Source: an uncultured Verrucomicrobiae bacterium (GTDB lineage Bacteria; Verrucomicrobiota; Verrucomicrobiia; Palsa-1439). From it: a stretch of DNA of 64,000 bases. A program made the translations under genes and the position numbers. This document shows, piece by piece, positions 15,262 to 35,741 of this stretch (position 1 is its first letter; each line of letters begins with the position of its first letter). The stretch lies in NCBI GenBank assembly GCA_963712025.1, contig CAVQGJ010000011.1, positions 455,929 to 519,928 of the forward strand, given 5' to 3'. The notes under the pieces are model-generated. The model searched no databases. It had not been told where the DNA came from and saw only the letters and a list, made by a program, of their open reading frames with translations.

Positions 15262-15669
15262 TCAGTGTTCTTTGTCGGGCAGATACCGGAACTCGACGAC
15301 CGACTCGCTGACTTCTTTTCCCCGCTCGTACCAATACACAGTGATCGTTTGCTGCCACATGCCGTCGATGCCTGTGCCTTCGAATTTCCGCGACCATGAG
15401 TAGCCGGGGTAGTCATCGAACTTGCCCTCTTGATCGAGAATGTCCGTTGGCTGCTCCACGCGGAACTCGTAACTCTTGTTGGCCAGAAGGATGTCGGACA
15501 CCGTGTAGTTCTGGATGGAGCGCGCCGCGGCCACATCGCGGCCCAGGCATTCGAGAAGCCCAAACACACAGATCGCCAGGATAAACACCGCCAACAACAC
15601 CTCCAGCAGAAGGAAGCCGGCCTCGGTCCGTCCGTGTGTGGCAGGGTGATGTTGACAGAGGGATTTCAT
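15262..15669 (-). CDS. gspI: minor pseudopilin GspI
   Basis: ATG 15669 overlaps the gspH stop (ATGA). MKSLCQHHPATHGRTEAGFLLLEVLLAVFILAI prepilin-type N-terminus. 135 aa. Confidence 0.65.
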   Translation of the reverse strand: MKSLCQHHPATHGRTEAGFLLLEVLLAVFILAICVFGLLECLGRDVAAARSIQNYTVSDILLANKSYEFRVEQPTDILDQEGKFDDYPGYSWSRKFEGTGIDGMWQQTITVYWYERGKEVSESVVEFRYLPDKEH

Positions 15670-16199
15670 AGTTTGACCGGCCACAACATGCCCCGACAGG
15701 TCACGGGATCGACGACCACTTCCAACCCATTGCCTTTTTCGACGCCGCGGAGCGTTACCGCAAAAGCGTCGCACGTGCCGTTCGGGTAGAACGTGGCCTC
15801 AACCTGCCCTCGGCCCTGCGGCATGAGTTCTCCCAACTGGGCGGAGGATAGCCCGATGCGGGTGGGCATCGGGATTGTCTTGAGTACGTCCGCGTCGCTG
15901 GAGGAACCATCGGCGGTGTCGTTCGTGCTGGCGGCTTGCATCAGCCAGATCGTCTGACGGTCCATGTCGATGTAATAGCCCACGTTTCGCTGGTGCAGCA
16001 CGGCATTGAGCTTGGCGAACTCGCAACTCGTCGCGATCGTGCGCCCGGTCGCATTCAGGACCTCGGTGTTATACGAGCGCACGAAACTGGGGACGGTCAC
16101 GGCGATGATGATGGCGATGATGAACACCGCGATGCTCAACTCGATCAGCGTGAAACCGCTCTCGCGACGGCGTGCGTCATTGCCAGTTGCCAATATCAT
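15666..16199 (-). CDS. gspH: minor pseudopilin GspH
   Basis: MILATGNDARRRESGFTLIELSIAVFIIAIIIAV prepilin-type N-terminus. 177 aa. Confidence 0.6.
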   Translation of the reverse strand: MILATGNDARRRESGFTLIELSIAVFIIAIIIAVTVPSFVRSYNTEVLNATGRTIATSCEFAKLNAVLHQRNVGYYIDMDRQTIWLMQAASTNDTADGSSSDADVLKTIPMPTRIGLSSAQLGELMPQGRGQVEATFYPNGTCDAFAVTLRGVEKGNGLEVVVDPVTCRGMLWPVKL

Positions 16200-16620
16200 C
16201 TTCGTTCCCCGCGACGCCATCGGGACCGGGCGAGGACAGGTCGTAGCTGGTCGTATTATGCGTGCCCGGATTCTGGTAGATATAATCATGGTTCCAAGGG
16301 TCCTTGCGGATGACCGGTGGCTTCAGATACGGGCCTTTCCAGTTGCCCGGCACCGGTGTGCTGCTTGGCGCCACGATCAGCGCTTGCAGCCCTTGCTCGG
16401 TGTTCGGCAATATCCCGTTGTCCAATTCATACAAATCGAGCGCCGCCGAAAAGTTGTGGATTTGATCCTGTGCCGCCGTCTTCTTGGATTCCCCGATCTT
16501 GGGCGCCAGATTCACGACGGCCACGCCGACGAGCATGCTGATGATGATCACCACCAGGAGGATTTCCAGGAGCGTGAACCCCGCCTCCGCACTACGATTG
16601 TGTTGGGGTCTGTTATTCAT
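16177..16620 (-). CDS. gspG: major pseudopilin GspG
   Basis: MNNRPQHNRSAEAGFTLLEILLVVIIISMLVGVAVVNL..DPWNHDYIY. GspG-type size and motifs. Confidence 0.8.
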   Translation of the reverse strand: MNNRPQHNRSAEAGFTLLEILLVVIIISMLVGVAVVNLAPKIGESKKTAAQDQIHNFSAALDLYELDNGILPNTEQGLQALIVAPSSTPVPGNWKGPYLKPPVIRKDPWNHDYIYQNPGTHNTTSYDLSSPGPDGVAGNEDDIGNWQ

Positions 16621-16636
16621 TGCCGCCTCCTCGATC

Positions 16637-17854
16637 TCACTTTCCAATTCCCGACGTGATGGAGAATACCGCCATCAATATGCTCATGACGATACCGCCG
16701 ACGACAACCGCCATGATAATGATAATCACGGGCTCAAGCAACGTCGTGAATATCTTCAGCATCCGCGAGAGTTCCTGCTCGTAGGCGTCGGCGATATTCT
16801 TGAGCGCGGGCACGACCGCGCCGCTCTCCTCCCCGACCGCCAGCATGTCGATGAGCAACGGCGGGAACACCTTGCCCTTGCTGAGCGGTTGGCTGATGCT
16901 TGTGCCGTCGGTCACCCGGGTGCGCGCCTCGCGAATCTCGTTCGCGATGACGCGGTTGGTCATGGTGTCCTCGACAATCTGCAGGGCCGTGAGCACGGGC
17001 ACGCCGTTTTCCAACAGCGTCGCCAGGGTCCGCGCGAACTGGGCCAGCGCGTTGGCCATCAGGATGTTCCCGAAGACCGGCAGCCGCAACTTCAGGACGT
17101 CGAGCGCCAACTTCCCCTCCGGGGTTCGGGCGCGAATCCGATAGACCGTCACCCCCGCGACAGCCAGAAGAACCCCGATCCACCAATAGGCCACGAACTT
17201 GTCGCTGATCCAGATGAGGCACCGGGTCGGCAATGGCATGGTGGTGCCCATTTCCTTGAACATGGCCGAGAACCGCGGCACCATGACCAGCATGAAGAAA
17301 ATAATCGTGCAGATGCCGACCGCGACAATAATCAACGGGTAAATCAGGGCGCCAACAACTTTCTCGCGCACCTCGGCCATCTGCTCCTGATGTTTTCCCA
17401 GACGCAGGAGCACGTCGTCCAAAGAGCCACTGGCTTCACCCGCCTTGATCAGGTTCACAAAGAAGCGGGAGAAAACCTTGGGGTGCTTCGACAGCGAATC
17501 CGACAGGCTCTCGCCCTGGACGATGCCATTCCGCAATTCACTCAGGATGGCCCCCAGCGCCCTCTTTTGCGACCGTCGTTCCAGGGTGCCAAGCGCCTGG
17601 CTCAGCGACATACCGGATTTCAGGAGACTGGACAATTGCTGGGTGAACATGAGCACATCACGGGACTTGACCCGGTTGCCCAAGCTGCTGGCCTTGTCCT
17701 GGGCCAGTTGATCCGCCTCGGCCGAATCCACCGCCAGCGGGAAGAACCCCAGTTTGCTCAGCTCCGCCAATGCCGCGCGACGGTCGCCCGCAGCGAGAGA
17801 CCCGTTCACGACTTCGCCAGCGCGCGTCTTGGCTTTGTATTGGAACGTCGGCAT
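16637..17854 (-). CDS. gspF: type II secretion system inner-membrane platform protein GspF
   Basis: 405 aa; duplicated GspF/PilC domain architecture (..LSSLLKSGMSLSQAL.. and ..LATLLENGVPVLTAL..). Confidence 0.9.
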   Translation of the reverse strand: MPTFQYKAKTRAGEVVNGSLAAGDRRAALAELSKLGFFPLAVDSAEADQLAQDKASSLGNRVKSRDVLMFTQQLSSLLKSGMSLSQALGTLERRSQKRALGAILSELRNGIVQGESLSDSLSKHPKVFSRFFVNLIKAGEASGSLDDVLLRLGKHQEQMAEVREKVVGALIYPLIIVAVGICTIIFFMLVMVPRFSAMFKEMGTTMPLPTRCLIWISDKFVAYWWIGVLLAVAGVTVYRIRARTPEGKLALDVLKLRLPVFGNILMANALAQFARTLATLLENGVPVLTALQIVEDTMTNRVIANEIREARTRVTDGTSISQPLSKGKVFPPLLIDMLAVGEESGAVVPALKNIADAYEQELSRMLKIFTTLLEPVIIIIMAVVVGGIVMSILMAVFSITSGIGK

Positions 17855-17956
17855 GTAATGGTCGTTAGTTCGACACCGAACAGGATACTTTGTTCCGCGC
17901 CGTGCTCAATCCCAAAAGAGCGGGTTGCAGCACGTTCCGCCCCTCCGCCAGGCGGC

Positions 17957-19684
17957 TCACGTGCCGGTCAGTTCTTCGTCTTCCTGCGTGACCCGCGCGA
18001 TTTCTTCCACGGTCGTCATGCCCTGGCGGACCTTGTCCCACCCGTCATCGCGGAGGGTCTTCATCCCCTGGCTGATCGCCATTTGCTTGATGGCGCTGGA
18101 CGAGGCGCGTTCGATAATCAAGGGCCGCAACGCCTCGGACATCACGAGGATTTCGTAGATGGCCGAGCGCCCCTTGAATCCGGTAAACCGGCACTCTTCG
18201 CAGCCGCGCCCCCGGTAGAACTTCACCTTGCCAATGTCCTGGGCGGGAAACCCGACCTCGTGGAGAAATTCAGGTCCGGGTTTGTACTCCTCCTTGCACG
18301 CCTTGCAATTCGTCCGGATCAGGCGCTGGGCAATCAACGCCTCGACCGACGAACTCACCAGAAACGGCTCGATGCCCATGTCGATCAACCGCGTGATCGC
18401 GCCGGGCGCGTCGTTCGTGTGGAGCGTCGAGAACACCAGATGGCCCGTCAGCGCCGCGCGAATGGCGATCTCCGCCGTTTCCAGGTCGCGCACTTCACCA
18501 ACCATGATCACGTCGGGGTCCTGCCGCAAAATGTGGCGCAGGCCGCTGGCAAACGTCAGCCCGATTTCCGACTTCACCGAAATCTGGTTGACGCCGGGCA
18601 GTTCGTATTCGACGGGCTCCTCGATGGTGATGATTCGCTGGTCAATCGAGTTGATCGTGCTCAGAAACGCGTACAACGACGTGGATTTGCCCGAACCGGT
18701 TGGCCCCGTGACGAGGATGATCCCGTGCGGCATATCAATCAGTTTGCGGATGATCTTTTCCTCCTCCTTGTTCAGGCCCAAACTCTCGAGCCCGAGAAAG
18801 ATGCTGCTGCGCGTCAGCAACCGCAAACTGACGCTTTCCCCGTAGGCGGTCGGAATGGTCGAGACACGCACGTCGATTTCCGCGCCGCTGCTGCGGACGT
18901 TGATGCGACCGTCCTGCGGGAGGCGGCGTTCGGCGATGTCCATGTTGGACATGACCTTGATGCGTGAGATGATCGCGGCCTGGAACCGTTTCAGGTGCGG
19001 CGGCACGGGCGTCTGGTGCAACACGCCGTCTACGCGATAGCGGATGCGCAGGTCGTTCTCCATCGGTTCCATGTGAATGTCGGTCGCCCGCTCCTTGTAC
19101 GCCTCCCCGATGATCTGGTTCACAAATTTGACGACGCTCGCCTCTTGGTCGCCGCTTTCCAAATCGTCCTTCGTCACTTCGGCGATCTCGTCGATGTCCA
19201 GCACGTTCTTCTGCAACAGCTCGTCCAGTGTCTCCGCGCCAACCCCGTAATAGCGTTTCAGGGCCTTGGCGATGTCGGCCTGGGTGCACAAGGCCAGTTG
19301 GACGCGCGATTTGGTCACGAGCCGGACGGCTTCGAGCATGGTGAGATTGAACGGATCATGGGCGGCCACCAGTAGCGTCCCGTTCTCGGCGCGCATCGGC
19401 ATGACGTTGTGCTGGAACACTACCTTGGTCGGGACCTTCTGGCGCGCGACCGCGTCGATCTCTTTGTCGGTGATCCGCGTGAACGGCAGGTGCAGCGCCT
19501 GGGCCAGAGCTTGGAGCAGCTTCTCTTCGGGCGCGACTCCCGATTTCACCAGCGTAGTGATGAGCGGCTGCGCGGCTGACTGCGGGGCCGACAGCGCCTC
19601 GGAAATCTGCTTTTCCGTGAAAAGTCCCGTCTGCTGAAGCAGTTGCCGCAGATCCACCGGTATTGTGTCGACAGTCGCTACCAT
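17957..19684 (-). CDS. gspE: type II secretion / type IV pilus assembly ATPase GspE
   Basis: Start moved to ATG 19684 (MVATVDTIPVDL..). Walker A VTGPTGSGKSTSLY. Tetracysteine CKACK..CEEC. GspE/PilB N-terminal domain. Confidence 0.9.
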   Translation of the reverse strand: MVATVDTIPVDLRQLLQQTGLFTEKQISEALSAPQSAAQPLITTLVKSGVAPEEKLLQALAQALHLPFTRITDKEIDAVARQKVPTKVVFQHNVMPMRAENGTLLVAAHDPFNLTMLEAVRLVTKSRVQLALCTQADIAKALKRYYGVGAETLDELLQKNVLDIDEIAEVTKDDLESGDQEASVVKFVNQIIGEAYKERATDIHMEPMENDLRIRYRVDGVLHQTPVPPHLKRFQAAIISRIKVMSNMDIAERRLPQDGRINVRSSGAEIDVRVSTIPTAYGESVSLRLLTRSSIFLGLESLGLNKEEEKIIRKLIDMPHGIILVTGPTGSGKSTSLYAFLSTINSIDQRIITIEEPVEYELPGVNQISVKSEIGLTFASGLRHILRQDPDVIMVGEVRDLETAEIAIRAALTGHLVFSTLHTNDAPGAITRLIDMGIEPFLVSSSVEALIAQRLIRTNCKACKEEYKPGPEFLHEVGFPAQDIGKVKFYRGRGCEECRFTGFKGRSAIYEILVMSEALRPLIIERASSSAIKQMAISQGMKTLRDDGWDKVRQGMTTVEEIARVTQEDEELTGT

Positions 19685-19743
19685 CACATTTTCACCTCTA
19701 CGATATGAGACACCACATTCCTTGTCAATGGCACAAGAAATCG

Positions 19744-19763
19744 GGTAGTGTCCTAATTTGAAA
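19744..19763 (+). repeat. left terminal inverted repeat GGTAGTGTCCTAATTTGAAA (flanked by TSD AGAAATCG at 19736-19743)
   Basis: Exact reverse complement of 32020-32039. The tip matches the IS1-family end consensus GGnnnTG. Confidence 0.85.
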
Positions 19764-20165
19764 ACTTCGCATAGCAGGGTCAATCAGGCCCATGGCAAGA
19801 AAAGGCCAACATTCCCCCATCCTGACCCCAGCCTTATTGACTGGAAGCGAATCGACAAGGGCATTCTGCATGAGGTGCGCGTCCTGCGAGCCAACGGCAT
19901 CGAGACGACGGAATCCTGTCAGGGCGGACACGGGCATCCGTTCCCGGAGCCTACGGTGCGATTCTGCGGTGGAGAAGCCGCCGGATGGTTTGCGCTTGGC
20001 ATCGCGATGCAAGAGCGCCTAGCGGTGAACGAGCTTCGGAGAATCTGGCGCATTATTGATGGCGTGCCCACTGGCCCGGAATGGGAAATAACATTCGATC
20101 ATCCCGGTGTCGGGCCATGCCCGGTGGATAGAGGAGACGGGAAAGCCACTTGGCGCTGGCGCTAA
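19758..20165 (+). CDS. hypothetical protein (up to 135 aa; start uncertain)
   Basis: ORF with a TTG start inside the left TIR and no early ATG. ..GIETTESCQGGHGHPFPEPTVRFCGGEAAGWF.. No recognised domain. Confidence 0.4.
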   Translation: MKTSHSRVNQAHGKKRPTFPHPDPSLIDWKRIDKGILHEVRVLRANGIETTESCQGGHGHPFPEPTVRFCGGEAAGWFALGIAMQERLAVNELRRIWRIIDGVPTGPEWEITFDHPGVGPCPVDRGDGKATWRWR

Positions 20166-20457: not shown

Positions 20458-20721
20458 TCATTCCCTCTGGATGTTGACATTCGCTCCGCCATCGGAAGTG
20501 ACCACACAAATCAGCCTTCCGGTCTCCTCGCTCCTGTTGTTCTCCCATTGGACCGGACGTAAGCCTCTCCGGTCGATTTCCCATCCGAAGCCCGACTCGT
20601 GGTTTCCGTGCTCGCTGCGCACAATCCACGCGCCGCATTCGTCTTTACGCGCTTTGGCCGGGTCATGGCTTGCTACCGTATCGCCATTTCTCCACGCTTG
20701 CTCTATCAAATCCTCATCCAC
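20458..20721 (-). CDS. HNH-endonuclease-like small protein, catalytic core apparently deleted
   Basis: ..RKDECGAWIVRSEHGNHESGFGWEIDRRGLRPVQWENNRSEETGRLICVVTS. The family normally reads GWEIDH-about 15 aa-NLRPLQWENN. Confidence 0.55.
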   Translation of the reverse strand: MDEDLIEQAWRNGDTVASHDPAKARKDECGAWIVRSEHGNHESGFGWEIDRRGLRPVQWENNRSEETGRLICVVTSDGGANVNIQRE

Positions 20722-20904
20722 AGTAGCCTCCCGTGTGACACATGATTACTGGGTAGTCGAAACGCGAAGGCCCGGCCATCCAACCTGACCGGAAGCCAAG
20801 TCCGGGGGAAGGACAGCCGAGCCGTCGCAGTCAGAGCCTACGAGCCTTCCGAATTGCTGTCAACACCATCACGCAACTCAGCGGCTTGGGCTGGTAGCCG
20901 GATT

Positions 20905-21132
20905 TCATCGGCGGTTCTTCTTTCGCTTTGGAGCGGAAAAATCCCGAGCAGGCATCCACACCGCATCCATTTTCGGCTTCTTGTCCGGTGCCGACATACC
21001 GATGAGTCTCAGCGACCGGAAGGCAGCCTCCTTGTCGCGGAATGCGGCCAGCGGGCGATACTCGCCATCGTACAGGGCCGAAATCACGTACACTTTCTTC
21101 GTCGGTACGATTGGAATTAGTTGGTTGCTCAT
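20905..21132 (-). CDS. small hypothetical protein (75 aa)
   Basis: ATG 21132 lies 4 nt after the stop of the upstream TPR gene. MSNQLIPIVPTKKVYVISALYDGEYRPLAAFRDKEAAFRSL.. Confidence 0.5.
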   Translation of the reverse strand: MSNQLIPIVPTKKVYVISALYDGEYRPLAAFRDKEAAFRSLRLIGMSAPDKKPKMDAVWMPARDFSAPKRKKNRR

Positions 21133-21135
21133 GCT

Positions 21136-21741
21136 TCATCCTCCTTGGCCTTGGCGATGGTCTGTCGTCAATCCATTGCCAACACTGTCTCGCAACTCAG
21201 CGGCTTGTTGGCATGTCTCTGCTGATTCTCGGATTCGGCCAAGCCGAAACAGAATCTTGCCACGGTGGTTTATCACACGGGCCGCGTCCTTGCGCATTTC
21301 GGGATATGGATTTGCGCTCATCAATTCACGGTAGAGCCGGATGGATTCGTCCACCGTTTTCAATGCCTCATCGAACCGATTCAGTTGAAACAGCGCATCG
21401 GCTTTGGTCGATAACGCATAAGCGATGTCGATTCGGTACTGAGTAGCGCCCGCCTCGACCGCCTTCCGGTAATTGTTAATGGCGGCATCGTTGCTTGCCA
21501 CTGATTCTTCGTACTGCATAAGGCGAAACAGAACTTCGCCAGCATAGTATTGAGTCTGAGCCAAATCGGTTACGGATTCGACCCCACCATCTCGTGCGAG
21601 CCGCTCGAAAATTTCCGACGACTCATGGAATCGCTCAAGCGCCTCTTTGTAAGAATCCCCATCAATACACTTCAAGCCGTCACGGGCCGCCGCAACAGCG
21701 CCATCACGGATAGCTGCGTGGTCTTTGATAGTTTCAGCCAT
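21136..21741 (-). CDS. TPR-like helical repeat protein (201 aa), cassette A
   Basis: Paralog of 22786-23292 (shared ..VASNDAAI..AGxxxYxIxIAYALSTxADALxxLNRFxExL..). C-terminus CQQAAELRD. Confidence 0.6.
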   Translation of the reverse strand: MAETIKDHAAIRDGAVAAARDGLKCIDGDSYKEALERFHESSEIFERLARDGGVESVTDLAQTQYYAGEVLFRLMQYEESVASNDAAINNYRKAVEAGATQYRIDIAYALSTKADALFQLNRFDEALKTVDESIRLYRELMSANPYPEMRKDAARVINHRGKILFRLGRIRESAETCQQAAELRDSVGNGLTTDHRQGQGG

Positions 21742-21760
21742 GTTACATACCTCCTAGCAT

Positions 21761-22264
21761 CTAGCGGACAAAGGTGTGTCCTCCCCATCCGCGCCGGTGG
21801 CGTCGCCCAAATTCCGCCTCGGCCAGTTTGTCGCACCAATCTGTGCGGCCTGATTCAACCAGTGTGCGGATAGCTCGCGCTGCGTCGGAGTACGACTGCT
21901 CGGCGCTAACGCCACACGCCGCATTGGAGCGAGCGTCTATCAAGAATGCGATGGCCGCAGATTCGTCTGTGTCACGAGCGTTGTCCCATGTCTCGCGCCA
22001 TCCACCGTTTTTGACGCGCTCCCGACACGATGGACAAGCCCACACCCCTTCAATGCGATTAGCCTCGCGGATGTCGAGTCGGCCCGGGCAGAATTCACAG
22101 AATCGGAACGGTTGCTGTTCCAGCGCCTTCGCGCCAGCCGTGCCTAGACAGCACAAGCAAATGAATTCACTCCGACCAGCAACGGTCGGGTGTGTCTGCA
22201 TGTGATTCCATTGGCCCCGATAGAGACCGACCTTGCCGCAGAGTTGGCAGACCTGCGAACCCAT
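21761..22264 (-). CDS. Cys-rich (multi zinc-ribbon-like) hypothetical protein (167 aa), first gene of cassette A
   Basis: CQLCG..CLCC..CEFCPG..CPSC motifs. Directly preceded by structured leader copy A. Confidence 0.55.
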   Translation of the reverse strand: MGSQVCQLCGKVGLYRGQWNHMQTHPTVAGRSEFICLCCLGTAGAKALEQQPFRFCEFCPGRLDIREANRIEGVWACPSCRERVKNGGWRETWDNARDTDESAAIAFLIDARSNAACGVSAEQSYSDAARAIRTLVESGRTDWCDKLAEAEFGRRHRRGWGGHTFVR

Positions 22265-22284
22265 CTTGTCCCGTTTCCCTTCCT

Positions 22285-22466
22285 GCGATCAGGACAAACA
22301 GAAACCGCGCTCGGTCAGGAACGCGGTTCAATCTGCGTGGAGTTACTGTTCGGACGGTCATTCGCCGCCCGCACATCGACCGGAGCAACTTACTCTGGTC
22401 AAGCCACCGTGGGACTCCCGCCCCGGTTGGCAGATTCGGCTTTCACCGAATCGTTCCTGATGCTGG
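22285..22466 (-). ncRNA. candidate structured 5' leader RNA, copy A (ends in a terminator-like hairpin 22303-22328 plus a U-rich tract)
   Basis: About 85-90% identical to 24046-24257. Several hand-foldable hairpins. Promoter immediately upstream, RBS and ATG about 20 nt downstream. Confidence 0.55.
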
Positions 22467-22470
22467 CGCG

Positions 22471-22498
22471 ATTATACACCACGCCGTCGCTGAGTCAA
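22471..22498 (-). promoter_or_regulatory. sigma70-like promoter for leader A
   Basis: Minus strand TTGACT (22498-22493), 16-nt spacer, TATAAT (22476-22471). The conserved leader begins 5 nt downstream. Confidence 0.55.
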
Positions 22499-22505
22499 GC
22501 TCGGA

Positions 22506-22760
22506 TTAGAGCATCTCGACTTGATTGCTTCTTACACCATCCGCTTTTGGACTGGCAAACGGGTCTATGCGCGGCGGACAATCGAGGCGTTCAGTCTTGT
22601 TCAACAAGCCCTCGATGGTGAGAATCTGAACACGCGGATAGTCCTTGTCACTCCACAGTTTTGATGTGTAGCAGTTTGCCTCCACTGCTTCCAATTTCAT
22701 CTTCGACGTTGGCGGGTCGAGTGTGATGAGCACGCCCGCCTTGAACCCCTGATTGCCCAT
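22506..22760 (-). pseudogene. C-terminal fragment of a DNA methyltransferase
   Basis: ..KAGVLITLDPPTSKMKLEAVEANCYTSKLW..YPRVQILTIEGLLNKTERLDCPP. This is the typical C-terminus of N6/N4 methylases, and no upstream catalytic part is present. Confidence 0.55.
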
Positions 22761-23292
22761 GTCTGCCTCGCACGACTGACGAAACCTGGCGGATGGATTC
22801 CTCCACGACTGTCAACGATTCCTTGAATCGATTCAAGCGATACAAGGCATCGGCATTGGTGGACAGCGCGTAAGCAATGTGGATTTCGTACTCGCTCTGG
22901 CCTGCGTTGACCAATTCCTGCCACAACCGGATGGCCGCGTCGTTGCTGGCGACACATCCCTCGTACTTGGCGTTGTGGAAGAAGCCTTCGCCCGTGTCAT
23001 AGTGCGCCTCCGCCAAATCGCAGGCGAATTCGGCATGGCCGCGATTGACCAGCCGCTTGAATACTTTCAATCCCCTTCGGAAACACGCGAGCGCCTCTTT
23101 GTGGTGACGGTCATGGAGCAACTTCAACCCTTGCGTCATCACGTCTGCCGCGTCATTTCGCTCTTGTTCTGACACAATCTTGTCGGCCATCTGGTTAGCG
23201 AACGCCTCGAATTCGGCTTTCGTGGCACCGCCGCTAATGAATCCAAGCGGCACCATGTCCGGTGTTTGGATGAATGGGGGGTTAGGATTCAT
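22648..23292 (-). CDS. TPR-like protein, cassette B second gene, truncated and fused into the methylase remnant
   Basis: ATG 23292 (MNPNPPFIQ..). Paralogy to 21136-21741 stops after ..TVVEESIRQ (about 22786). The remaining ORF reads out of frame across the methylase fragment. Confidence 0.5.
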   Translation of the reverse strand: MNPNPPFIQTPDMVPLGFISGGATKAEFEAFANQMADKIVSEQERNDAADVMTQGLKLLHDRHHKEALACFRRGLKVFKRLVNRGHAEFACDLAEAHYDTGEGFFHNAKYEGCVASNDAAIRLWQELVNAGQSEYEIHIAYALSTNADALYRLNRFKESLTVVEESIRQVSSVVRGRHGQSGVQGGRAHHTRPANVEDEIGSSGGKLLHIKTVE

Positions 23293-24025
23293 GGTCGGTT
23301 GCGCCTCCACTCTTGACCTGAGCGTGCAATTCGGCGGCTCGCTGATAGCACGCGCTGGCCTCCGCTGCCCGATGCAGCCCCTTCAACGCATGGCCTTCGC
23401 ATCGCAGCGACCAGATGAGGACATTCTTGAATCGCTTTTCGTCGGTGGGGCCGCTTATCCCGTCCAGAGCTTCAACCGCGCCGTGAGCGCAAGTCACGGC
23501 TTCGTCAAATTGTCCACGGTTGCAAAAGATGATGCTTTTTTCCGCGAGTACCCATGCCGTCTCCTGTAGCGCGTCGGCCCGCAACGTGCCGCCAAGCAAC
23601 CGCTGGTAGACGGCCAGAGCCTCACCGAGTCTAGTCAGTGCATCGTCGAATTTTCCCGCCTTTCGGAGCGACTGGCCAATGGTAAAGAGCGTGATGCCGA
23701 ATTTCAACACCATGGGTTCACTCCATCGGTCAGACCAGTCGAGATACGCCGCGCCCACTTTGGCGAAAACGCCCAGTCCTTCGTCAAATTGGCGTGAGTG
23801 AACAAAATGCAGCGCATAGTCAAGCAGCGCGTCTACTCGTTCCGGCGGCAAATACGTAAGACCCCGATGCGCGGCAGCGCCGCCAATGATTTGGATGCCG
23901 CCGCCAATCATCTGGTCGGTGATGTCCTGAATCTCCACCTTGCTGCCGTCGGTCGTCGCCGGGTCATACTCGCCAAGGTCGGATAATCGCTTCGGTGCTT
24001 CTGACTGATTGCTGGTCCCACACAT
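23282..24025 (-). CDS. TPR-like helical repeat protein (247 aa), first gene of cassette B
   Basis: Helical repeats. The C-terminus CYQRAAELH resembles that of the other cassette proteins. Preceded by leader copy B. Confidence 0.6.
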   Translation of the reverse strand: MCGTSNQSEAPKRLSDLGEYDPATTDGSKVEIQDITDQMIGGGIQIIGGAAAHRGLTYLPPERVDALLDYALHFVHSRQFDEGLGVFAKVGAAYLDWSDRWSEPMVLKFGITLFTIGQSLRKAGKFDDALTRLGEALAVYQRLLGGTLRADALQETAWVLAEKSIIFCNRGQFDEAVTCAHGAVEALDGISGPTDEKRFKNVLIWSLRCEGHALKGLHRAAEASACYQRAAELHAQVKSGGATDHES

Positions 24026-24045
24026 GATGCACCCTGTCCTTTCTC

Positions 24046-24257
24046 GCGATCAGGACAAACAAAAACCGCGTTCGTCAGGAACGCGGTTCAAACTGCGGAG
24101 TATTTTGTTCGGGGATTCCAGTCCAGAGGGCTCTAATTGCCCAAGGAGGGAACCACTCCCGCACATCGACCGGAGCTACTCGCTCCGACCAAGCCACCGT
24201 GCGAACTCCCTCGCCGGTTGGCAGATTCGGCTTTCACCGAATCGTTCCTGATGCTGG
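24046..24257 (-). ncRNA. candidate structured 5' leader RNA, copy B (terminator-like hairpin 24064-24088 plus UUUUUGUUUGU)
   Basis: Same blocks as copy A with a 30-nt longer central hairpin. Compensatory substitutions occur in two stems. Confidence 0.55.
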
Positions 24258-24261
24258 ACAG

Positions 24262-24290
24262 AGAATATCAGGTAACAGATTCGATTGCAA
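24262..24290 (-). promoter_or_regulatory. sigma70-like promoter for leader B
   Basis: Minus strand TTGCAA (24290-24285), 17-nt spacer, TATTCT (24267-24262). Confidence 0.45.
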
Positions 24291-24296
24291 GCGAAT

Positions 24297-26691
24297 TTAG
24301 GCGGGCTGCTTTTCAGATGCTTCCCATCGCGCGCTGGACGCCTTGACCGATTCGTAGTTGGCATCAAGGCTCGGCTGTAAAAGCACAAGCGCAGCAATGC
24401 GACGGGCCATCGCCGTAACTTCTTGGACCTCCTCAACCCGCAACGAGCGGCCAAGCAGCGCATCTTCTCGGTAGCTAAGCCATTTCTTGATGACCTGATA
24501 GCCGCCGATGGTGTAATCCCATATCTGCCAACGCGCCGCGCAATCGCACCGGGAAGTAATAGGCGTCGTCGCGCAACGCATGGTCGTCGCCTAGCAACCG
24601 TGTAAAACAAAATGGCACGCCTTCAGGATTTGCCTTTCCTGTGCATCGTGTAAGCAAGAAACTGTTGCCGGGCCAACATTGCGCCCAAAGCGTAGGACGC
24701 GGTTCGTTCCAAAGCGGTCTGACCCCACTGTAATAGCAGTAGCGGGTATCGAAGGGGCGAACGAAGTATGCTCGCAAATGTGATGGCACGAACTTTTCGA
24801 CGGCAAGAATCTTATTTCTAGTCTTCCTAGCGTCAAATCGTGCCGCGTTCTCGACTAGACCACCTCCTGCTGCCGCAAGCGTTTCCCAAGTCACGTTAGG
24901 GTCACAATATCTTCTCATCCGCTGTTCAAGCGTCGCTTGGTCAGTGTCAATTAGTGTCCCGCCGCGTTTCTCCATCAGACCATTGGGCGGAGCCTGCGCG
25001 CATAATTCAGAAATCTTAGGCCACTTTGCATAGTGGTCGGCAACATTGCCCGGGACGGAACGAGAACCGATTGCTTTTCTTTGGTTCCGCTATGGCGAAT
25101 TTCTCCTCGAATTGCCAAGCACGACCAAAATATCGCCCTCATGTTTCACCTGATTGGCAGCGTCGTACTCCTGTTTCAATTCCGGCATGTTCATTTCCAG
25201 TTGTTGCAGCCGAGCCTTGCCCTCATTAGATGGCGGTTGCCAGCCGGTGAGTGAGTTCGTCAGATAAACACGGACGCGATCAGTCTCGGTGAGCGGGGCT
25301 TTCAGGTTTTGCAACAATAAGCCGATTTGAAGGTGAGAAACCACAAATGGTGCCGGTAAATCTCGAATCCAAACAGACGTTCAAGCGTTGCCTTTTTAAG
25401 CTCGTCTGGAACGGTGGCATCGCCACTATTCTCTTGGAGGGTCGCGTGAATCCTCCTGATGACTTCCAGCAAATAACCCGCCGTTCCACAACAGGGGTCA
25501 AGCACGTGGACGTGCTTGTTGGCGAATCCGTCCTCCAAATCAAGTTCTTCACGCAATATCTTGTCCACTCGCTCAACTTGGTAACGGATAATTTCTCGCG
25601 GGGTCAGCCAGACGCCAAGTTGCTTTCGTAATTCCGGGTCGAAGGCCTTTAGGAATGGCTCATAGAAGTATTGCACGGCCTGATGCTCGTCAAACCGAGC
25701 AAAGAAAGTGGTGCGCTCCACTCGGTTAAGTAGGTTTTCCGTCCACCCTAGGACTTCCGTAAGACCAAGAGGTTTCAATTTGGACGGCGAGGAAACCTGT
25801 TGAAACAACGCTTGGATAACGGGCAGCCTGAGATAATCGACGCACTCCCGCCAGCGAAAGTCATTTTTCCGGGTTGGATTTTCCTTGTGCCATAGAACCC
25901 ACCCGGAGAACACGCCATAGAAAAGCGTTTGCACAAGTGTCGAATGGAAAAAGTGTTGAGCTTCTTCATCCGAGAACTTCATACCCAGTCCTTCTTCCAA
26001 TGCTGTTCGCGTTGAGGCCAATGCTGGCAAATCGGCCTGCTGTTCGACATGGATGCGAGCATCGCGAGCGTAGGACGCGAGAAACCAAGCGACCATTTCT
26101 GGTTCAATTATCGTGGAGGAATTGAGCATCACCCGCTTCAAGTATTCTGCTATCAATTCCCCATGACGCTCTGCCGTCTTGCGAGCATGGTCAGTAGCTC
26201 TCCAAAAATCATCCTCGTTGGTTGCCAAGGAGTAGGTCTCCAGTTCTACTGGCTTTCCATTCGTGTCACGTCCAACCAAGAGAAAGCTCCAGAAATTTGT
26301 CACCAATACTTGACCGTATTTTCCCAAGTACCGTATGACCTGCTCGCCCTTCGCCACATCCCGCAGAGATTCTCCGGCGGGTTTGGCTTCGATTACTCCG
26401 CGGTCGGGGTCCAACTCAGCTAATGGAGGCACGGCTTGGTTTTGTTTGAGCAAAGATGTCGTGAATAATCCGAAGTCGGGAATTCCTTTGCCGTGGTTCT
26501 TCGGATGGTTGATGGAGGTGATCTTAGGTTTGAGTGTGTCGCCAATTGTATTCAGTAGATCGGAGAGAGCCGGGTATCCTGAAGTTTCGTCCGTACCTGC
26601 TCCACGAATTGACTGCACGCGGTTGAGATAGCGTTCTAGCGCCTCGGTAAACTTCGACGTAGTGGTTTTTTCAGGTTTCATCGTCATCATC
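24297..26691 (-). pseudogene. MmeI-like type IIG restriction-modification enzyme remnant (several frame breaks plus an internal deletion of the NPPY region)
   Basis: N-terminal PD..EAK nuclease-like motif (GIPDFGLF..RGVIEAKP). SAM motif I VLDPCCGTAGYL. ..GFEI|LPAPFVVSHLQIGLLLQNL.. ILVVLGN is followed directly by FEEKFAIAEPKKSNRFSFRP. Type-ISP-like C-terminal domain ..WDYTIGGYQVIKKWLSYRE. The pieces lie in ORFs 25302..26879, 25090..25344, 24475..24975 and 24297..24581. Confidence 0.65.
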
Positions 26692-26961
26692 ATCCCACGG
26701 GTCCGGGTAATACCCGGTGTCGTCAGCAATCGCCTTGCTGACACGTTCCGGTATCGAGCCATCCTTGCAAAACTGTCCGGCTTCCTCTGCGGTGACTGGA
26801 ATGGCATCGTTCCATTCACCGACTGTGCCCTTCCAGGGTTTCCACTCGCCGTTGTCGAAAGTGAGTATGCCCCCGCCATCCCTCATCGGCTCTGGGTCGA
26901 TTAACTGGCGAGCGCGGGTTATTGAATATCTGCCATATAGGTCATCGCCCATGCGAGTCAC
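26671..26961 (-). CDS. small hypothetical protein with acidic tail (96 aa)
   Basis: Its start overlaps the upstream gene's stop by 4 nt, and its own stop overlaps the start of the RM remnant. Ends ..YYPDPWDDDDDET. Confidence 0.5.
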   Translation of the reverse strand: MTRMGDDLYGRYSITRARQLIDPEPMRDGGGILTFDNGEWKPWKGTVGEWNDAIPVTAEEAGQFCKDGSIPERVSKAIADDTGYYPDPWDDDDDET

Positions 26962-28067: not shown

Positions 28068-28381
28068 TTGCGCCCTTCTTTCTCTTTGATCTCACTGACG
28101 ATGGCCGCTTGTACCGCCTTTTGCGGCGTGTCTATCGGCGGCACTCCCAACACGGCCACGTACTTCGTCTTTTCGTCCTGTGCGCCGTCCAGATGGCTCC
28201 ACGCATAACATCGCTTGGCCTTCGGATGGCCGACCAAATCGAACACTTCCACGATACCGCGCCATGCTGTCTTGCCCTGAAAGACTTCATGCACCGGCAC
28301 GGATTCGATGTGCTTGGAATCGCAGCCGTGCAGCTTGCCGATCACGGCCCGCAGTTCTTCGACGTATTCAGGATTCGCCAC
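28064..28381 (-). CDS. small conserved hypothetical protein (105 aa)
   Basis: MANPEYVEELRAVIGKLHGCDSKHIESVPVHEVFQGKTAWRGIVEVFDLVGHPKAKRCYAWSH.. Its start overlaps the transposase stop by 14 nt. Confidence 0.55.
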   Translation of the reverse strand: MANPEYVEELRAVIGKLHGCDSKHIESVPVHEVFQGKTAWRGIVEVFDLVGHPKAKRCYAWSHLDGAQDEKTKYVAVLGVPPIDTPQKAVQAAIVSEIKEKEGRK

Positions 28382-29198
28382 AGCGTTCTATCAGTTCCGC
28401 AACCGTCCACTGGCTGCTTTCCACGCCTGCCGCTTGTGCGGGAGTCATGCGAATAGCCCCATGCGATTTGCAGAAATTATAGTACGCAAAACTCAGCGCG
28501 ACCGCAGCCTTAAAATTCGGCAGCTTCTTGCTAAAGGCGTTGGTCAACCGGGTGAGGCGTCGGCAGTGCATCCGTAGAGTGTGATTCTGTTTCTCGACAT
28601 GCGAGGTTGTGATTCGGGCAACCAGTGGGTTGCCTTGGATAATTTTCCTTTCGACTTCCACGACCTCTGCCGGGCTGTACCGGCTCGCCGCTTCCTTCGT
28701 GAGATTCGTGACGGAGTAGGTTTTTACAATTTGCCCATAATCGACTTCGCTGCCGAACCCGTAATCGACAGCTTCGGGATAAGTACCAAGAGCGTCTGAC
28801 GAAAGCTGGACGCGATTCGCCAGCCGTCCAGCCAAATCATCCATGAATCGCCGTGCAAAATACCGGTCGCGCTGGCCCACGACAAAGGCAGGAATCAATT
28901 TAGTATCGCAGTCCAAGGCAATCCATGTCCAAACATCGCCATACACGCGCGCCCGTGCCGCGTTCTTTCGCTTGGCTCCAATGAAGCCCCAAATTTCATC
29001 AACTTCGACGTTGCGGCATGGCAGGTTGACCATTTTCGCATCCATGATGGCCTCACAGGCAGTGCCAACGCGGAGGCCTAGCCTCATAATCGTATCCCTG
29101 TGGATGCCCGTCATCCGCTCAATGGAGCGGATGGAATTGCCTTCGGCCAAAGCGCCGATCACCACCGCCTGTTTGTCTGGTTTCAAGTTGTTTGCCAT
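28368..29198 (-). CDS. IS1-family transposase (single-ORF type)
   Basis: 276 aa. N-terminal HTH (EGNSIRSIERMTGIHRDTI). DDE region VEVDEIWGFIGAKRKN..VWTWIALD..LSSDALGTY..TSHVEKQNHTLRMHCRRLTRLTNAFSKK..YYNFCKSH. Confidence 0.8.
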   Translation of the reverse strand: MANNLKPDKQAVVIGALAEGNSIRSIERMTGIHRDTIMRLGLRVGTACEAIMDAKMVNLPCRNVEVDEIWGFIGAKRKNAARARVYGDVWTWIALDCDTKLIPAFVVGQRDRYFARRFMDDLAGRLANRVQLSSDALGTYPEAVDYGFGSEVDYGQIVKTYSVTNLTKEAASRYSPAEVVEVERKIIQGNPLVARITTSHVEKQNHTLRMHCRRLTRLTNAFSKKLPNFKAAVALSFAYYNFCKSHGAIRMTPAQAAGVESSQWTVAELIERCGES

Positions 29199-29484: not shown

Positions 29485-29578
29485 TGGCGGAAGCTGAGGG
29501 AGTCGAACCCCCATCGCTGGTCAGAGCGAGACCATTGGGGTGTAAAGTCCAGTTGCGCACCGGCGCGGGTCAGCTTCC
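29485..29578 (-). tRNA. selC-like (tRNA-Sec / allo-tRNA-like) gene with a non-canonical anticodon arm; possibly a pseudo-tRNA
   Basis: GGAAGCUGACCCGCGCCGGUGCGCAACUGGACUUUACACCCCAAUGGUCUCGCUCUGACCAGCGAUGGGGGUUCGACUCCCUCAGCUUCCGCCA. It has an 8-9 bp acceptor stem, a T arm with UUCGACU, a D stem with the 4-nt loop CGGU, a long variable hairpin and an encoded CCA. Confidence 0.5.
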
Positions 29579-34459: not shown

Positions 34460-34607
34460 GGCTACCACCTTAACCGATGGGCACTGACTTTGTCCAGAGT
34501 ACGGGCGAGCCGGTCACGAGCTTCTTTACTTGCGCAGTTGGAAGCCCTTGTGCTACAAATGCGGCACGGAACTTGCACCAGTTAGCCCGGAACCAAGGAG
34601 ACGTTTC

Positions 34608-35579: not shown

Positions 35580-35741
35580 CCTCCGCTTGCCTCTTCGACA
35601 GATTGCGACGGGCGGCCCGAGTTCCGGGCCGCCCTGTTCGTTTCTTCGAGAAGCGCCCTTCCCTCTCGCCGCAACGAAATATCCTCGACATTCCCGCCGG
35701 GAAAATGGTTTGCTCGGTGTCGAGTGTTCAAGGAAGACATC

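What the first reader, a model, noticed from the sequence alone, without database searches (positions are those of the whole stretch)
20831..24025. Two paralogous TPR cassettes with shared 5' leaders and shared 3' ends, plus an orphan 3'-end remnant
Cassette A runs leader, Cys-rich 167 aa, TPR 201 aa, 75 aa. Cassette B runs leader, TPR 247 aa, TPR paralog.

The 201-aa protein and the cassette B second gene are clear paralogs (VASNDAAI..IAYALST.ADAL..LNRF).

Three proteins end with a related C..AAEL(R/H) tail. A fourth copy of just that tail (..AQAAELRDGVDSNSEGS-stop) is left out of frame at about 20850-20900. It shares the 17-mer CGCAACTCAGCGGCTTG with 21192-21208.

This pattern of conserved ends with swapped interiors suggests recombination-driven shuffling of a sensor-like TPR module on a mobile element. 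No enzymatic partner is recognisable, so any function, defence or otherwise, is unknown.
Basis: partly seen in the sequence, partly recalled or inferred. Interest (0 to 1): 0.5.

Follow-up and report, generated by a model that had tools for sequence, protein, structure and literature searches.

The report
SAM-riboswitch-controlled TPR gene cassettes
The two shared "leaders" are SAM-sensing riboswitches of a known class, but here they control small operons of TPR and zinc-finger proteins next to a decayed restriction enzyme gene instead of methionine genes, which suggests accessory (possibly defence) genes that switch on when the cell runs low on SAM.

Summary
All genes lie on the minus strand. 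Both about 210-240 nt leaders are complete SAM-I/IV-class riboswitches. Each has P1-P5, the PK-2 pseudoknot, an intrinsic terminator and a second anti-P1 segment near the ribosome-binding site.

A covariance model built without the window sequences scores them at 143 and 121 bits. Rfam scores them 38.5 and 33.1 bits, just under its cut-off of 41.1. Related leaders in PVC genomes precede metH and metK, so the switch most likely turns genes off at high SAM.

- **Cassette B:** leader B, TPR247 and a TPR227-like gene, downstream of a decayed Type IIG restriction-modification gene.
- **Cassette A:** a fragment resembling a DNA methyltransferase C-terminus, a promoter, leader A, Cys167, TPR201 and orf75. 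It is a 1.87 kb block inserted into the 3' part of cassette B's second gene.
- **Orphan tail:** that gene's original 3' end, as an intact relative (L001) shows.

Homologous riboswitch-led operons in other Verrucomicrobiota-like contigs mix the same genes. Some add a kinase-like protein and an AAA_5 ATPase, and many lie next to restriction-modification genes. Leaders and gene ends are conserved while the TPR core diverges.

The protein function is unknown. Induction at low SAM and a link to restriction-modification or defence are inferred, not shown.

The parts
25302..26879 (-). N-terminal and methyltransferase part of a decayed Type IIG restriction-modification gene, upstream of cassette B
   Evidence: PADLOC REase_MTase_IIG, E 1.6e-35, covering model positions 2-404 of 1096. 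Pfam N6_Mtase. The rest of the gene is missing or fragmented.
24297..24975 (-). Two overlapping ORF fragments (24475-24975 and 24297-24581) of the Type IIG target-recognition domain (Type_ISP_C); a pseudogene remnant ending just upstream of leader B
   Evidence: Pfam PF18135 matches to profile positions 17-152 and 294-319 of 342. L021 and L065 have an intact Type_ISP_C domain upstream of their riboswitch, directly upstream in L021 and about 2 kb upstream in L065.
24262..24290 (-). Weak sigma-70-like promoter of leader B (TTGCAA, 17 nt spacer, TATTCT; 8 of 12 matches)
   Evidence: Read from the sequence. It falls below the scan threshold. The same sequence is conserved in L001. Inferred.
24026..24259 (-). 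Leader B: SAM-I/IV-class riboswitch. The aptamer is 24259-24083, with an enlarged P5. The terminator is 24089-24063. A UCCUGAU segment, a ribosome-binding site and the ATG at 24025 follow.
   Evidence: Rfam RF01725 at 33.1 bits, E 6e-3. Own model R1 at 120.9 bits. Terminator scan. 90% identical to the leader of L021.
23282..24025 (-). TPR247: TPR protein with a conserved N-terminal 50 aa (..IQIIGG) and a conserved C-terminal tail (..CYQRAAEL..GGATDHES) flanking a divergent TPR core
   Evidence: Pfam TPR_12, TPR_2 and TPR_10 above their cut-offs. 93% identical to the L001 protein and 31-33% to L021 TPR243. Mosaic conservation.
22761..23310 (-). 5' four-fifths of a TPR227-like gene (paralog of TPR201), disrupted by a 1-nt insertion and truncated at 22761
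   Evidence: Alignment with the intact L001 gene. 48-50% identity to TPR201.
20888..22760 (-). Inserted block of about 1.87 kb carrying the whole of cassette A
   Evidence: Collinearity with L001 is lost between 22761 and about 20888, and about 100 bp of the L001 gene is missing.
22506..22760 (-). 84-aa ORF, probably the C-terminal fragment of a DNA methyltransferase carried in with the block
   Evidence: The only support is a tblastn hit, E 2e-3, 48% over 46 aa, at the matching C-terminal position of the Marinitoga phage MPV1 DNA methyltransferase. No hit in Pfam, NCBIfam, PDB or plasmids.
22471..22498 (-). Sigma-70-like promoter of leader A (TTGACT, 16 nt spacer, TATAAT)
   Evidence: 11 of 12 consensus matches, ending 3 nt upstream of the modelled leader and 9 nt upstream of its P1 helix.
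22265..22468 (-). Leader A: SAM-I/IV-class riboswitch. The aptamer is 22468-22325 and the terminator 22329-22302. UCCUGAU, a ribosome-binding site and the ATG at 22264 follow.
   Evidence: Rfam RF01725 at 38.5 bits, E 4e-4. R1 at 142.9 bits, E 2e-36. PK-2 pairing GGAGU/ACUCC. Terminator.
21761..22264 (-). Cys167: an N-terminal Cys-rich (probably zinc-binding) domain plus a C-terminal helical-repeat domain
   Evidence: Invariant C6, Q7, C9, R54, C56, C59, C77 and C80 in a family of 15 representatives. AlphaFold2 pLDDT 91.6. No structural match. Fused to TPR repeats in L054/P0007.
21136..21741 (-). TPR201: TPR protein, paralog of the TPR227-like gene
   Evidence: Pfam TPR families above their cut-offs. 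Only two other 90% clusters among 5.8 billion proteins.
20905..21132 (-). orf75: small conserved cassette protein
   Evidence: 75% identical to an ORF after TPR306 in L065. 39-41% identical to the N-terminal part of riboswitch-led ORFs in L125 and L143.
20882..20908 (-). First 9 codons (MKSGYQPKP) of an orf98-like gene, cut at the right junction of the block; microhomology AAGCCGC
   Evidence: Compare L065 orf98, MKPGYKPKP.., which follows the orf75 homologue there.
20838..20887 (-). Orphan tail: the last 16 codons plus stop of the disrupted TPR227-like gene
   Evidence: Collinear with the L001 TPR227 3' end and downstream DNA. 31-nt repeat shared with the TPR201 3' end.

Best explanation
**What it is.** The locus holds two independent transcription units, each headed by a SAM-I/IV-class riboswitch. 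A sigma-70-like promoter fires directly into the P1 helix.

**How the switch most likely works (inferred).** When SAM is bound, the aptamer (P1-P4, P5, PK-2) holds the 5' segment AUCAGGAA. The downstream intrinsic terminator then forms, and a second UCCUGAU segment is free to mask the ribosome-binding site, so the genes are off. When SAM falls, the 5' segment is free to pair with its conserved complements in the terminator loop and next to the ribosome-binding site, and the operon is expressed.

**What is controlled.** The genes are not methionine genes. They are small protein-interaction proteins: TPR247, TPR227-like, TPR201, the Cys-rich Cys167 and orf75. These belong to a rare, modular gene set that elsewhere travels with a Kinase-PolyVal-like protein and an AAA_5 ATPase. 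It sits next to SAM-dependent Type IIG and other restriction-modification genes.

**Proposed role (inferred).** I read the cassettes as restriction-modification-linked accessory or conflict modules induced by low SAM. The TPR cores would be the variable recognition parts.

**State of this genome.** The locus is partly decayed. The Type IIG gene is a pseudogene. Cassette A was inserted by illegitimate recombination into the last gene of cassette B, which left the orphan tail.

**Shown versus inferred.**
- Shown: RNA class and structure, operon anatomy, paralogy, the insertion, synteny and mosaic conservation.
- Inferred: SAM binding, the off-switch logic, the protein roles and the defence link.
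For: **RNA.**
- Rfam SAM-I/IV hits on both leaders; relatives L070, L092 and L065 pass the gathering score.
- Model R1, built from 14 other loci, gives 142.9 and 120.9 bits and finds only these two copies in the window.
- On 89 distinct sequences, 96.4% of cells pair against 73.7% when shuffled. 28 of 38 pairs show compensatory changes, including all 9 pairs of P4.
- PK-2 covaries: GGAGA/UCUCC, GGAGU/ACUCC, GGAGC/GCUCC, GUGAGA/UCUCAC.
- The architecture matches the published SAM-I/IV description: continuous P2, no PK-1, P4 present, P5 plus PK-2 (PMC6890682).

**Expression platform.** Terminators are at 24089-24063 and 22329-22302, and a promoter at 22498-22471. A complement of AUCAGGAA lies downstream in 81 of 104 leaders against 3% in shuffles, and a second copy near the ribosome-binding site in 31.

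**Off logic.** The same aptamer and platform family precedes metH (7 genome loci and most of 25 metagenome loci) and metK (2 loci).

**Cargo and context.**
- A Type IIG or Type_ISP_C gene lies upstream in the window, L021, L065 and L125, and fragments of one in L001 and L138. A Type II restriction-modification pair sits at L096.
- The kinase-like protein and AAA_5 module occur in L125 and L132; L021 has the AAA_5 ATPase without the kinase-like gene.
- Cassette genes recur in different orders.
- The TPR core diverges between conserved ends.

**Insertion.**
Against: - No ligand binding or expression data exist.
- Both window leaders score below Rfam's gathering cut-off.
- The cassette proteins have no hit in PADLOC, no enzymatic domain and no structural neighbour, so a defence role rests on neighbourhood alone.
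- The restriction-modification association comes from about 12 loci and was not tested against a formal null.
- In the window the partner Type IIG gene is a pseudogene, the ATPase module is absent and one TPR gene is broken, so the locus may be non-functional here.
- The conserved complement often lies in the terminator loop rather than its stem, so how it would prevent termination is unclear. MFE folding gave no clear alternative structure.
- Most aptamers of this subtype precede an unrelated small protein (HHLW) in ordinary chromosomal contexts, so SAM control is not specific to defence islands.
Confidence: 0.6

Rival explanations
1. SAM-economy regulators. The cassettes belong to the SAM/methionine homeostasis regulon. 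When SAM is scarce, the TPR and zinc-finger proteins bind and restrain the neighbouring SAM-consuming restriction-modification enzyme, or otherwise spare or salvage SAM. They have no role against phages.
For: Close relatives of the same riboswitch family control metH and metK. The leaders sit just downstream of SAM-dependent methyltransferase genes. The proteins are pure interaction modules without an effector domain.
Against: The TPR core is highly divergent between conserved ends, and gene content is shuffled. That pattern is typical of conflict genes rather than housekeeping regulators. The families are extremely rare: 3 and 15 clusters. Relatives include Kinase-PolyVal and AAA_5 modules and lie in islands with Hhe-like, MksE and integrase genes.
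Confidence: 0.2
2. Evolutionary debris. The leaders are copies of a metH-type riboswitch leader spread by recombination within a decaying variable region. In this genome the cassettes have no selected function.
For: The Type IIG gene is fragmented. The TPR227-like gene is frameshifted and truncated. Methyltransferase fragments and a 9-codon gene stub flank the block. An IS1-like fragment lies nearby. The leaders are mosaics.
Against: Both riboswitches are structurally intact, with at most one non-canonical pair visible in leader A. The promoter matches the consensus at 11 of 12 positions. TPR247, Cys167, TPR201 and orf75 are intact ORFs. The riboswitch-TPR-TPR arrangement behind a Type IIG gene is kept in L021 at only 31-33% identity between TPR247 and its L021 homologue, which argues for selection.
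Confidence: 0.15
3. Mobile sensor cassette without RNA regulation. The shared leader is a recombination or attachment sequence of a mobile element, and the conserved 3' ends are its other boundary.
For: Conserved ends with a variable interior, and an insertion of one cassette into the other.
Against: The leader folds into a covarying riboswitch structure with a terminator. The block boundaries do not coincide with the leader or with the tail repeats. No recombinase or terminal repeats were found at the junctions. The shared 3' ends are the coding sequence of a conserved last TPR helix.
Confidence: 0.05

Closest known systems
SAM-I/IV riboswitch (Rfam RF01725, clan CL00012; env87 crystal structure)
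   Same: The P1-P2-P3 core has the conserved CAUCA.GA / GCCAACC / GGUGGCU / GAUG nucleotides. P2 is continuous without a kink-turn or PK-1. A P4 helix, a P5 hairpin and the PK-2 pseudoknot between the P3 loop and the 3' tail are all present. Family relatives control metH and metK.
   Different: The window copies score 38.5 and 33.1 bits, under the 41.1-bit gathering score, because the Rfam model treats P4 as an insertion. Leader B has an enlarged P5. The controlled genes are TPR and Cys-rich proteins, not SAM or methionine genes.
S-box (SAM-I) transcription-attenuation regulon of Firmicutes
   Same: Works alike: an aptamer followed by an intrinsic terminator, so genes are off at high SAM.
   Different: A different aptamer class (kink-turn, PK-1). 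The switching complement here lies in the terminator loop, with a second copy at the ribosome-binding site. The cargo is non-metabolic.
Guard-type backup systems linked to restriction enzymes (PrrC anticodon nuclease with EcoprrI; from my own knowledge)
   Same: An accessory module encoded beside a restriction-modification system that would become active when that system is disabled.
   Different: Analogy only. Here the proposed trigger is a drop in the cofactor SAM, sensed by RNA, not a protein-protein signal. No effector was identified and nothing was tested.
TPR sensor domains of bacterial STAND/Avs-type immune proteins (from my own knowledge)
   Same: A rapidly diverging TPR repeat region between conserved parts.
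   Different: No NTPase or effector domain is fused. The proteins are only 200-250 aa, and there is no PADLOC hit.

Membership tests
SAM-I/IV riboswitch (RF01725) | P1/P2/P3 core with the conserved SAM-pocket junction nucleotides | tested here: met
   cmscan aligns both leaders end to end (model 1-99) with the conserved CAUCA.GA, GCCAACC, GGUGGCU and GAUG.G. These columns are invariant in 67 relatives.
SAM-I/IV riboswitch (RF01725) | Continuous P2 (no kink-turn, no PK-1) and presence of a P4 helix (as described in PMC6890682) | tested here: met
   P2 has 8 pairs, 7 of them with compensatory changes. P4 has 9 pairs, all with compensatory changes, on 89 sequences. Description.
SAM-I/IV riboswitch (RF01725) | P5 hairpin and PK-2 pseudoknot between the P3 loop and the 3' tail | tested here: met
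   All P5 pairs covary. The loop and tail covary (GGAGA/UCUCC, GGAGU/ACUCC, GGAGC/GCUCC and others). The longest-helix statistic is only modestly above mismatched partners (5.5 against 5.0).
SAM-I/IV riboswitch (RF01725) | Score at or above Rfam's curated gathering threshold (41.1 bits) | tested here: not met
   Window leaders score 38.5 and 33.1 bits. Relatives L070, L092 and L065 score 46.2, 43.5 and 41.6 bits. The family-specific model R1 gives 142.9 and 120.9 bits.
SAM-I/IV riboswitch (RF01725) | Binds SAM and represses downstream genes | not testable with these tools
   Inferred from core conservation and from metH and metK being controlled by family members with the same platform.
TPR repeat proteins | Pfam TPR models above the gathering score | tested here: met
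   TPR247: TPR_12 at 41.7 bits. TPR201: TPR_12 at 44.6 and TPR_2 at 42.5. The TPR227-like ORF is borderline, TPR_2 at 27.0.
Type IIG restriction-modification enzyme (upstream gene) | Full-length fused nuclease, methyltransferase and target-recognition polypeptide | tested here: not met
   Only model positions 2-404 of 1096, plus two Type_ISP_C fragments, are present in separate ORFs, so it is a pseudogene. Intact in L125, with the C-terminal domain intact in L021 and L065.
Known anti-phage defence systems (PADLOC-DB v2) | Any cassette protein matching a defence-system model | tested here: not met
   TPR247, Cys167, TPR201, orf75, L001 TPR227, the L021/L132 AAA_5 ATPase, the kinase-like protein and the 648-aa protein all give 0 families.
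Discrete mobile element (IS, integron cassette, integrative island) | Recombinase gene and terminal repeats or attachment sites at the block ends | tested here: inconclusive
   No meaningful direct or inverted repeats at the junctions 22760 and 20888. The junctions show microhomology only. The window was not exhaustively screened for recombinases. An IS1-like fragment lies 6 kb away.

The most novel reading that the evidence does not exclude
The cassettes are the sensor and adaptor part of a backup immune module that guards SAM-dependent Type IIG restriction enzymes. Phages that destroy SAM to escape restriction (SAM lyases, as in T3; bioRxiv 10.1101/2023.02.27.530186) would lower SAM. That would release the riboswitch and switch on the TPR and zinc-finger proteins, and in full versions the kinase-like and AAA_5 partners. 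This would be the first case of a riboswitch acting as the trigger of an anti-phage response, by sensing depletion of a defence cofactor.
Probability: 0.2. Interest if true: 0.85.

Novelty: new variant of a known kind. Interest (0 to 1): 0.62.

Why it matters
SAM riboswitches are textbook regulators of sulfur and methionine metabolism. Here a bona fide member of the class heads rare, fast-evolving, shuffled operons of protein-interaction proteins beside SAM-dependent restriction enzymes.

If the link is functional, it connects metabolite-sensing RNA to genome defence or to control of restriction-modification. It also gives a directly testable model: SAM depletion as a signal.

The analysis also resolves the locus anatomy. 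An insertion explains the orphan gene end. The work provides a covariance model and about 130 related leaders, which show that in PVC bacteria most riboswitches of this subtype control genes of unknown function.

Tried and rejected
- **Rfam at gathering thresholds.** It found nothing in the window. The leaders appeared only with E-value thresholds on the sub-region.
- **tRNA scan.** None found.
- **Word-indexed protein searches.** Almost no relatives: 3 clusters for TPR201, and only the query itself for Cys167 and TPR247.
- **Exhaustive HMMER search for Cys167.** Only 15 representatives.
- **Single-sequence AlphaFold of Cys167.** Useless, pLDDT 41. With 12 sequences it reached pLDDT 91.6, but Foldseek against PDB and BFVD gave no match with E below 0.3.
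- **PADLOC and NCBIfam on the cassette proteins.** PADLOC returned no families. NCBIfam returned only weak generic TPR-level matches for TPR247 and TPR201 and nothing for the other cassette proteins.
- **The 87-aa ORF at 20458-20721.** My first guess of a small HNH nuclease has no family support. Its only relative is the C-terminal part of an HD_4 protein in L054.
- **The 84-aa ORF.** The 'methyltransferase C-terminus' label rests on one weak phage hit.
- **MFE folding with and without the P1 3' strand.** No clear antiterminator emerged.
- **Viral contigs.** The aptamer pattern is absent from IMG/VR, so a phage origin was dropped.
- **Integron attC sites, diversity-generating retroelements and retron RNAs.** I considered these for the 'leader' from memory and dropped them once the riboswitch structure was established. 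They were not formally tested.

Full report
**Observation**

All ORFs of the finding lie on the minus strand. In 5'-to-3' order on that strand the locus reads:
- a Type IIG restriction-modification gene, now fragmented: 26879-25302, then Type_ISP_C fragments at 24975-24475 and 24581-24297
- leader B (24259-24026)
- TPR247 (24025-23282)
- a TPR gene overlapping its end (from 23310)
- an 84-aa ORF (22760-22506)
- leader A (22468-22265)
- Cys167 (22264-21761)
- TPR201 (21741-21136)
- orf75 (21132-20905)
- the tail remnant (to 20838)

The two leaders share long identical blocks. A 30-mer from them occurs exactly twice in the window, against 0 expected. TPR201 and the second gene of cassette B are clear paralogs, 48% identical over 124 aa with E 2e-33. 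TPR247 is related only weakly, E 7e-6. The description is therefore correct.

**What the leaders are**

A whole-window Rfam search at gathering thresholds found nothing. An E-value search of the region aligned both leaders end to end with the SAM-I/IV riboswitch aptamer RF01725, at 38.5 and 33.1 bits against a gathering score of 41.1.

I scanned one genome per species with the aptamer-core pattern CATCAGGAA..GCCAACC..GGTGGCT. That gave at least 117 loci, almost all from Verrucomicrobiota, Planctomycetota and Lentisphaerota. Three of 18 loci tested pass Rfam's own threshold.

I then built a covariance model (R1) from 14 of these loci, leaving out the window and its near-identical relative L001.
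- It scores leader A at 142.9 bits (E 2e-36) and leader B at 120.9 bits, and finds no further copy in the window.
- It confirms about 130 aptamers in the fetched loci.
- On the model-fitted alignment of 89 distinct sequences, 96.4% of cells pair against 73.7% in shuffles and 34-47% when partners are slid.
- 28 of 38 pairs show compensatory changes, including every pair of P4 and P5. The alignment is fitted to the model, which favours the structure.
- An independent MAFFT/RNAalifold run already gave 13 of 24 pairs with compensatory changes.

The P3 loop and the 3' tail covary as a pseudoknot: GGAGA/UCUCC, GGAGU/ACUCC, GGAGC/GCUCC, CGGGAGCG/CGCUCCCG, GUGAGA/UCUCAC. A continuous P2, no PK-1, a P4 helix and P5 plus PK-2 is exactly the published description of the SAM-I/IV class (PMC6890682). 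The sub-threshold Rfam scores arise because the Rfam model treats P4 as an insertion (alignment).

**Expression platform**

Each aptamer is followed by an intrinsic-terminator-like hairpin with a U-rich tract (24089-24063 and 22329-22302). A purine-rich ribosome-binding site and the start codon come next.

Leader A is preceded by a TTGACT-16-TATAAT promoter (11 of 12 matches) that ends 3 nt upstream of the modelled leader and 9 nt upstream of its P1 helix. Leader B has a weaker TTGCAA-17-TATTCT, read by eye.

A sequence complementary to the P1 5' strand and J1/2 (AUCAGGAA) lies downstream in 81 of 104 leaders, against 3% in shuffles. It usually sits in the terminator loop. A second copy lies next to the ribosome-binding site in 31 leaders, including both window leaders. 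The predicted duplexes are -11.7 and -9.9 kcal/mol.

Plain MFE folding did not reveal a clean antiterminator, so the exact switching path is inferred.

Members of the same family with the same platform precede metH (L012, L036, L041, L069, L097, L114, L120, and most of 25 metagenome hits) and metK (L044, L084). SAM should repress those genes. The cassette leaders are therefore most likely off-switches too.

**The orphan tail explained**

TPR201 has only two other 90% clusters among 5.8 billion proteins. One of them (P0002) lies on contig L001, which carries an intact version of cassette B: leader, TPR249 and TPR227 ending ..SCREAAELRDAVDTKSTGA.

DNA alignment shows the window is collinear with L001 up to 22761, apart from a 1-nt insertion that shifts the frame. 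Collinearity resumes from about 20888 through the stop codon and runs at more than 95% identity in the roughly 400 bp downstream of the stop. About 100 bp of the gene is missing, and 1.87 kb is inserted.

The inserted block contains:
- the 84-aa ORF
- the leader A promoter
- leader A
- Cys167
- TPR201
- orf75
- the first nine codons (MKSGYQPKP) of a gene like L065 orf98 (MKPGYKPKP), which follows the orf75 homologue in L065

The right junction shows AAGCCGC microhomology. No repeats or recombinase mark the ends. Intact full-length genes exist in L001, L021 and P0003, so the window state is derived. The tail is the displaced 3' end of cassette B's second gene, not an independent fourth copy.

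**Proteins**

TPR247, TPR201 and the TPR227 type are TPR proteins. None matches a defence model.

Cys167 is nearly an orphan, with 15 representatives among 1.84 billion. Residues C6, Q7, C9, R54, C56, C59, C77 and C80 are invariant. With the alignment, AlphaFold2 gives a confident model at pLDDT 91.6: a small strand-rich Cys domain plus five helices. No structural neighbour was found in PDB or BFVD.

In L054 and P0007 the Cys domain is fused to C-terminal TPR repeats. This links Cys167 functionally to its TPR neighbour.

No enzyme is encoded in the window cassettes.

**Relatives and context**

Riboswitch-led operons with homologous genes occur in other contigs, in different combinations.

| Locus | Upstream or nearby | Riboswitch-led genes |
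|---|---|---|
| L021 | Type_ISP_C gene | TPR243 (31-33% to TPR247), TPR227-like (50% to TPR201), AAA_5 ATPase, 320 aa protein |
| L065 | Type_ISP_C gene about 2 kb upstream | TPR306, orf75-like (75%), orf98, ADP-ribosylglycohydrolase |
| L054 | not identified | 286 aa protein, Cys-TPR fusion, HD_4, metallophosphoesterase |
| L132 | locus starts within the riboswitch aptamer | Cys232, Kinase-PolyVal-like, AAA_5, 648 aa protein, FGase |
| L125 | Hhe-like helicase-nuclease, intact MmeI-like Type IIG enzyme (1421 bits), HSDR_N protein | orf75-like, 133 aa protein, kinase-like, AAA_5 |
| L091 | not identified | TPR300, resolvase |
| L092 | MksE/SMC-like genes follow | Cys-rich 95 aa |
| L096 | divergent MvaI/BcnI endonuclease and C5 methyltransferase | 246 aa protein |
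| L019 | integrase and DUF3987 nearby | not characterised further |

These rows rest.

The DNA just upstream of the L001 leader matches residues 996-1027 of the L125 Type IIG enzyme. The 84-aa ORF upstream of leader A weakly matches the C-terminus of a phage DNA methyltransferase. So at least 7 of about 12 cassette-type leaders adjoin restriction-modification genes or their remnants.

The restriction-modification queries hit none of the roughly 100 HHLW-type or met-type loci. That control is informal, because the queries came from cassette loci. The ATPase and kinase module is absent from the window. The aptamer pattern is absent from IMG/VR viral contigs.

**Mosaicism**

Window leader B is 90% identical to the L021 leader, although the downstream proteins share only 31-33% identity. 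Identity along the aligned cassettes varies by segment:

| Segment | Identity, window vs L021 |
|---|---|
| Leader | 85-93% |
| First ~130 nt of the TPR247 gene | 67-80% |
| TPR core | 28-47% |
| 3' end of the gene | 72% |
| Gene 2 | 70-87% |

The conserved 5' end, however, is a riboswitch, and the conserved 3' end is the coding sequence of the last TPR helix and tail.

**Interpretation**

The best-supported reading is two SAM-repressed operons of interaction or sensor proteins. They belong to a modular accessory gene set linked to restriction-modification, and here they sit in a partly decayed locus.

Three questions remain open:
- whether the set is a backup defence triggered by SAM depletion (phage SAM lyases are known to defeat SAM-dependent restriction and BREX; bioRxiv 10.1101/2023.02.27.530186)
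- whether it is a device that restrains the SAM-consuming enzyme when SAM is scarce
- whether it is debris

Full-text searches found no paper connecting SAM riboswitches with restriction-modification or phage defence.

The source organism was not identified. The closest leaders and proteins come from Verrucomicrobiia metagenome-assembled genomes (L019, L021, L065).

**Verdict**

- The RNA is a known class in an unusual regulatory role (a new variant of a known kind).
- The function of the proteins is unproven.

Noticed in passing
Loci L004-L120 (for example L040 6986-7127, L055, L070 3217-3361, L117): About 73-75 of the roughly 100 true aptamers found with the core pattern precede a 67-125 aa ORF. 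It carries the motif IR..NP.HHLWNNNGTWW.HYTEHLPD.TKRRVR.SLHT..ARVLRDSLL and has a weak Pfam match to DUF6538 (integrase N-terminal-like, E 1e-3). The chromosomal contexts are unrelated. It may be a SAM-controlled small DNA-binding regulator. The count is biased by my search pattern.
   Followed up: partly
L012, L097, L114, L122, L124, L133-L136, L144, L145: In metH leaders of the same expression-platform subfamily, a conserved 62-77 aa ORF (M(S/Y)VTATQP...RRL(D/E)EWAAALDFPLDFQI) lies between the riboswitch and metH.
   Followed up: no
window 29489-29578 (-): A tRNA-Sec-like match below Rfam's threshold (35.5 bits against a gathering score of 47, E 0.003). ARAGORN finds no tRNA in the window. 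It lies next to an IS1-like transposase fragment (28368-29198).
   Followed up: no
window 32111-34126 (-), with 34470-35339 and 35511-37391: A UvrD-family helicase with strong PADLOC GajB-type matches (316 bits). It is followed by two large ORFs with no family hit. Together with the Type IIG pseudogene and the IS fragment, this suggests a variable or defence-island region.
   Followed up: partly
window 26728-26946 (-): A stretch just upstream of the Type IIG start is 47% identical over 75 aa to the C-terminal part of the riboswitch-led orf75-like 241-aa protein of L125. It may be another cassette-gene remnant.
   Followed up: no
L065 1-134 (-), L040 2747-2889 (-), L118, L139: Several loci carry two aptamers of this family within a few kb, as the window does.
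   Followed up: no
L021 3348-5122; L132 879-4692; L125 1-1469: A conserved module of unknown function lies downstream of cassette genes: a Kinase-PolyVal-like protein (266-271 aa; in L125 and L132, not found in L021), an AAA_5 ATPase (271 aa, 90-96% identical across loci) and a 320-648 aa protein with no Pfam or PADLOC hit.
   Followed up: partly
window 15666-19783 (-): Type II secretion or pilus genes (GspE-like ATPase identified by sequence resemblance only; T2SSF and a GspH-like pseudopilin by Pfam) flank the variable region on its downstream side. They mark the return to ordinary chromosomal genes.
   Followed up: partly
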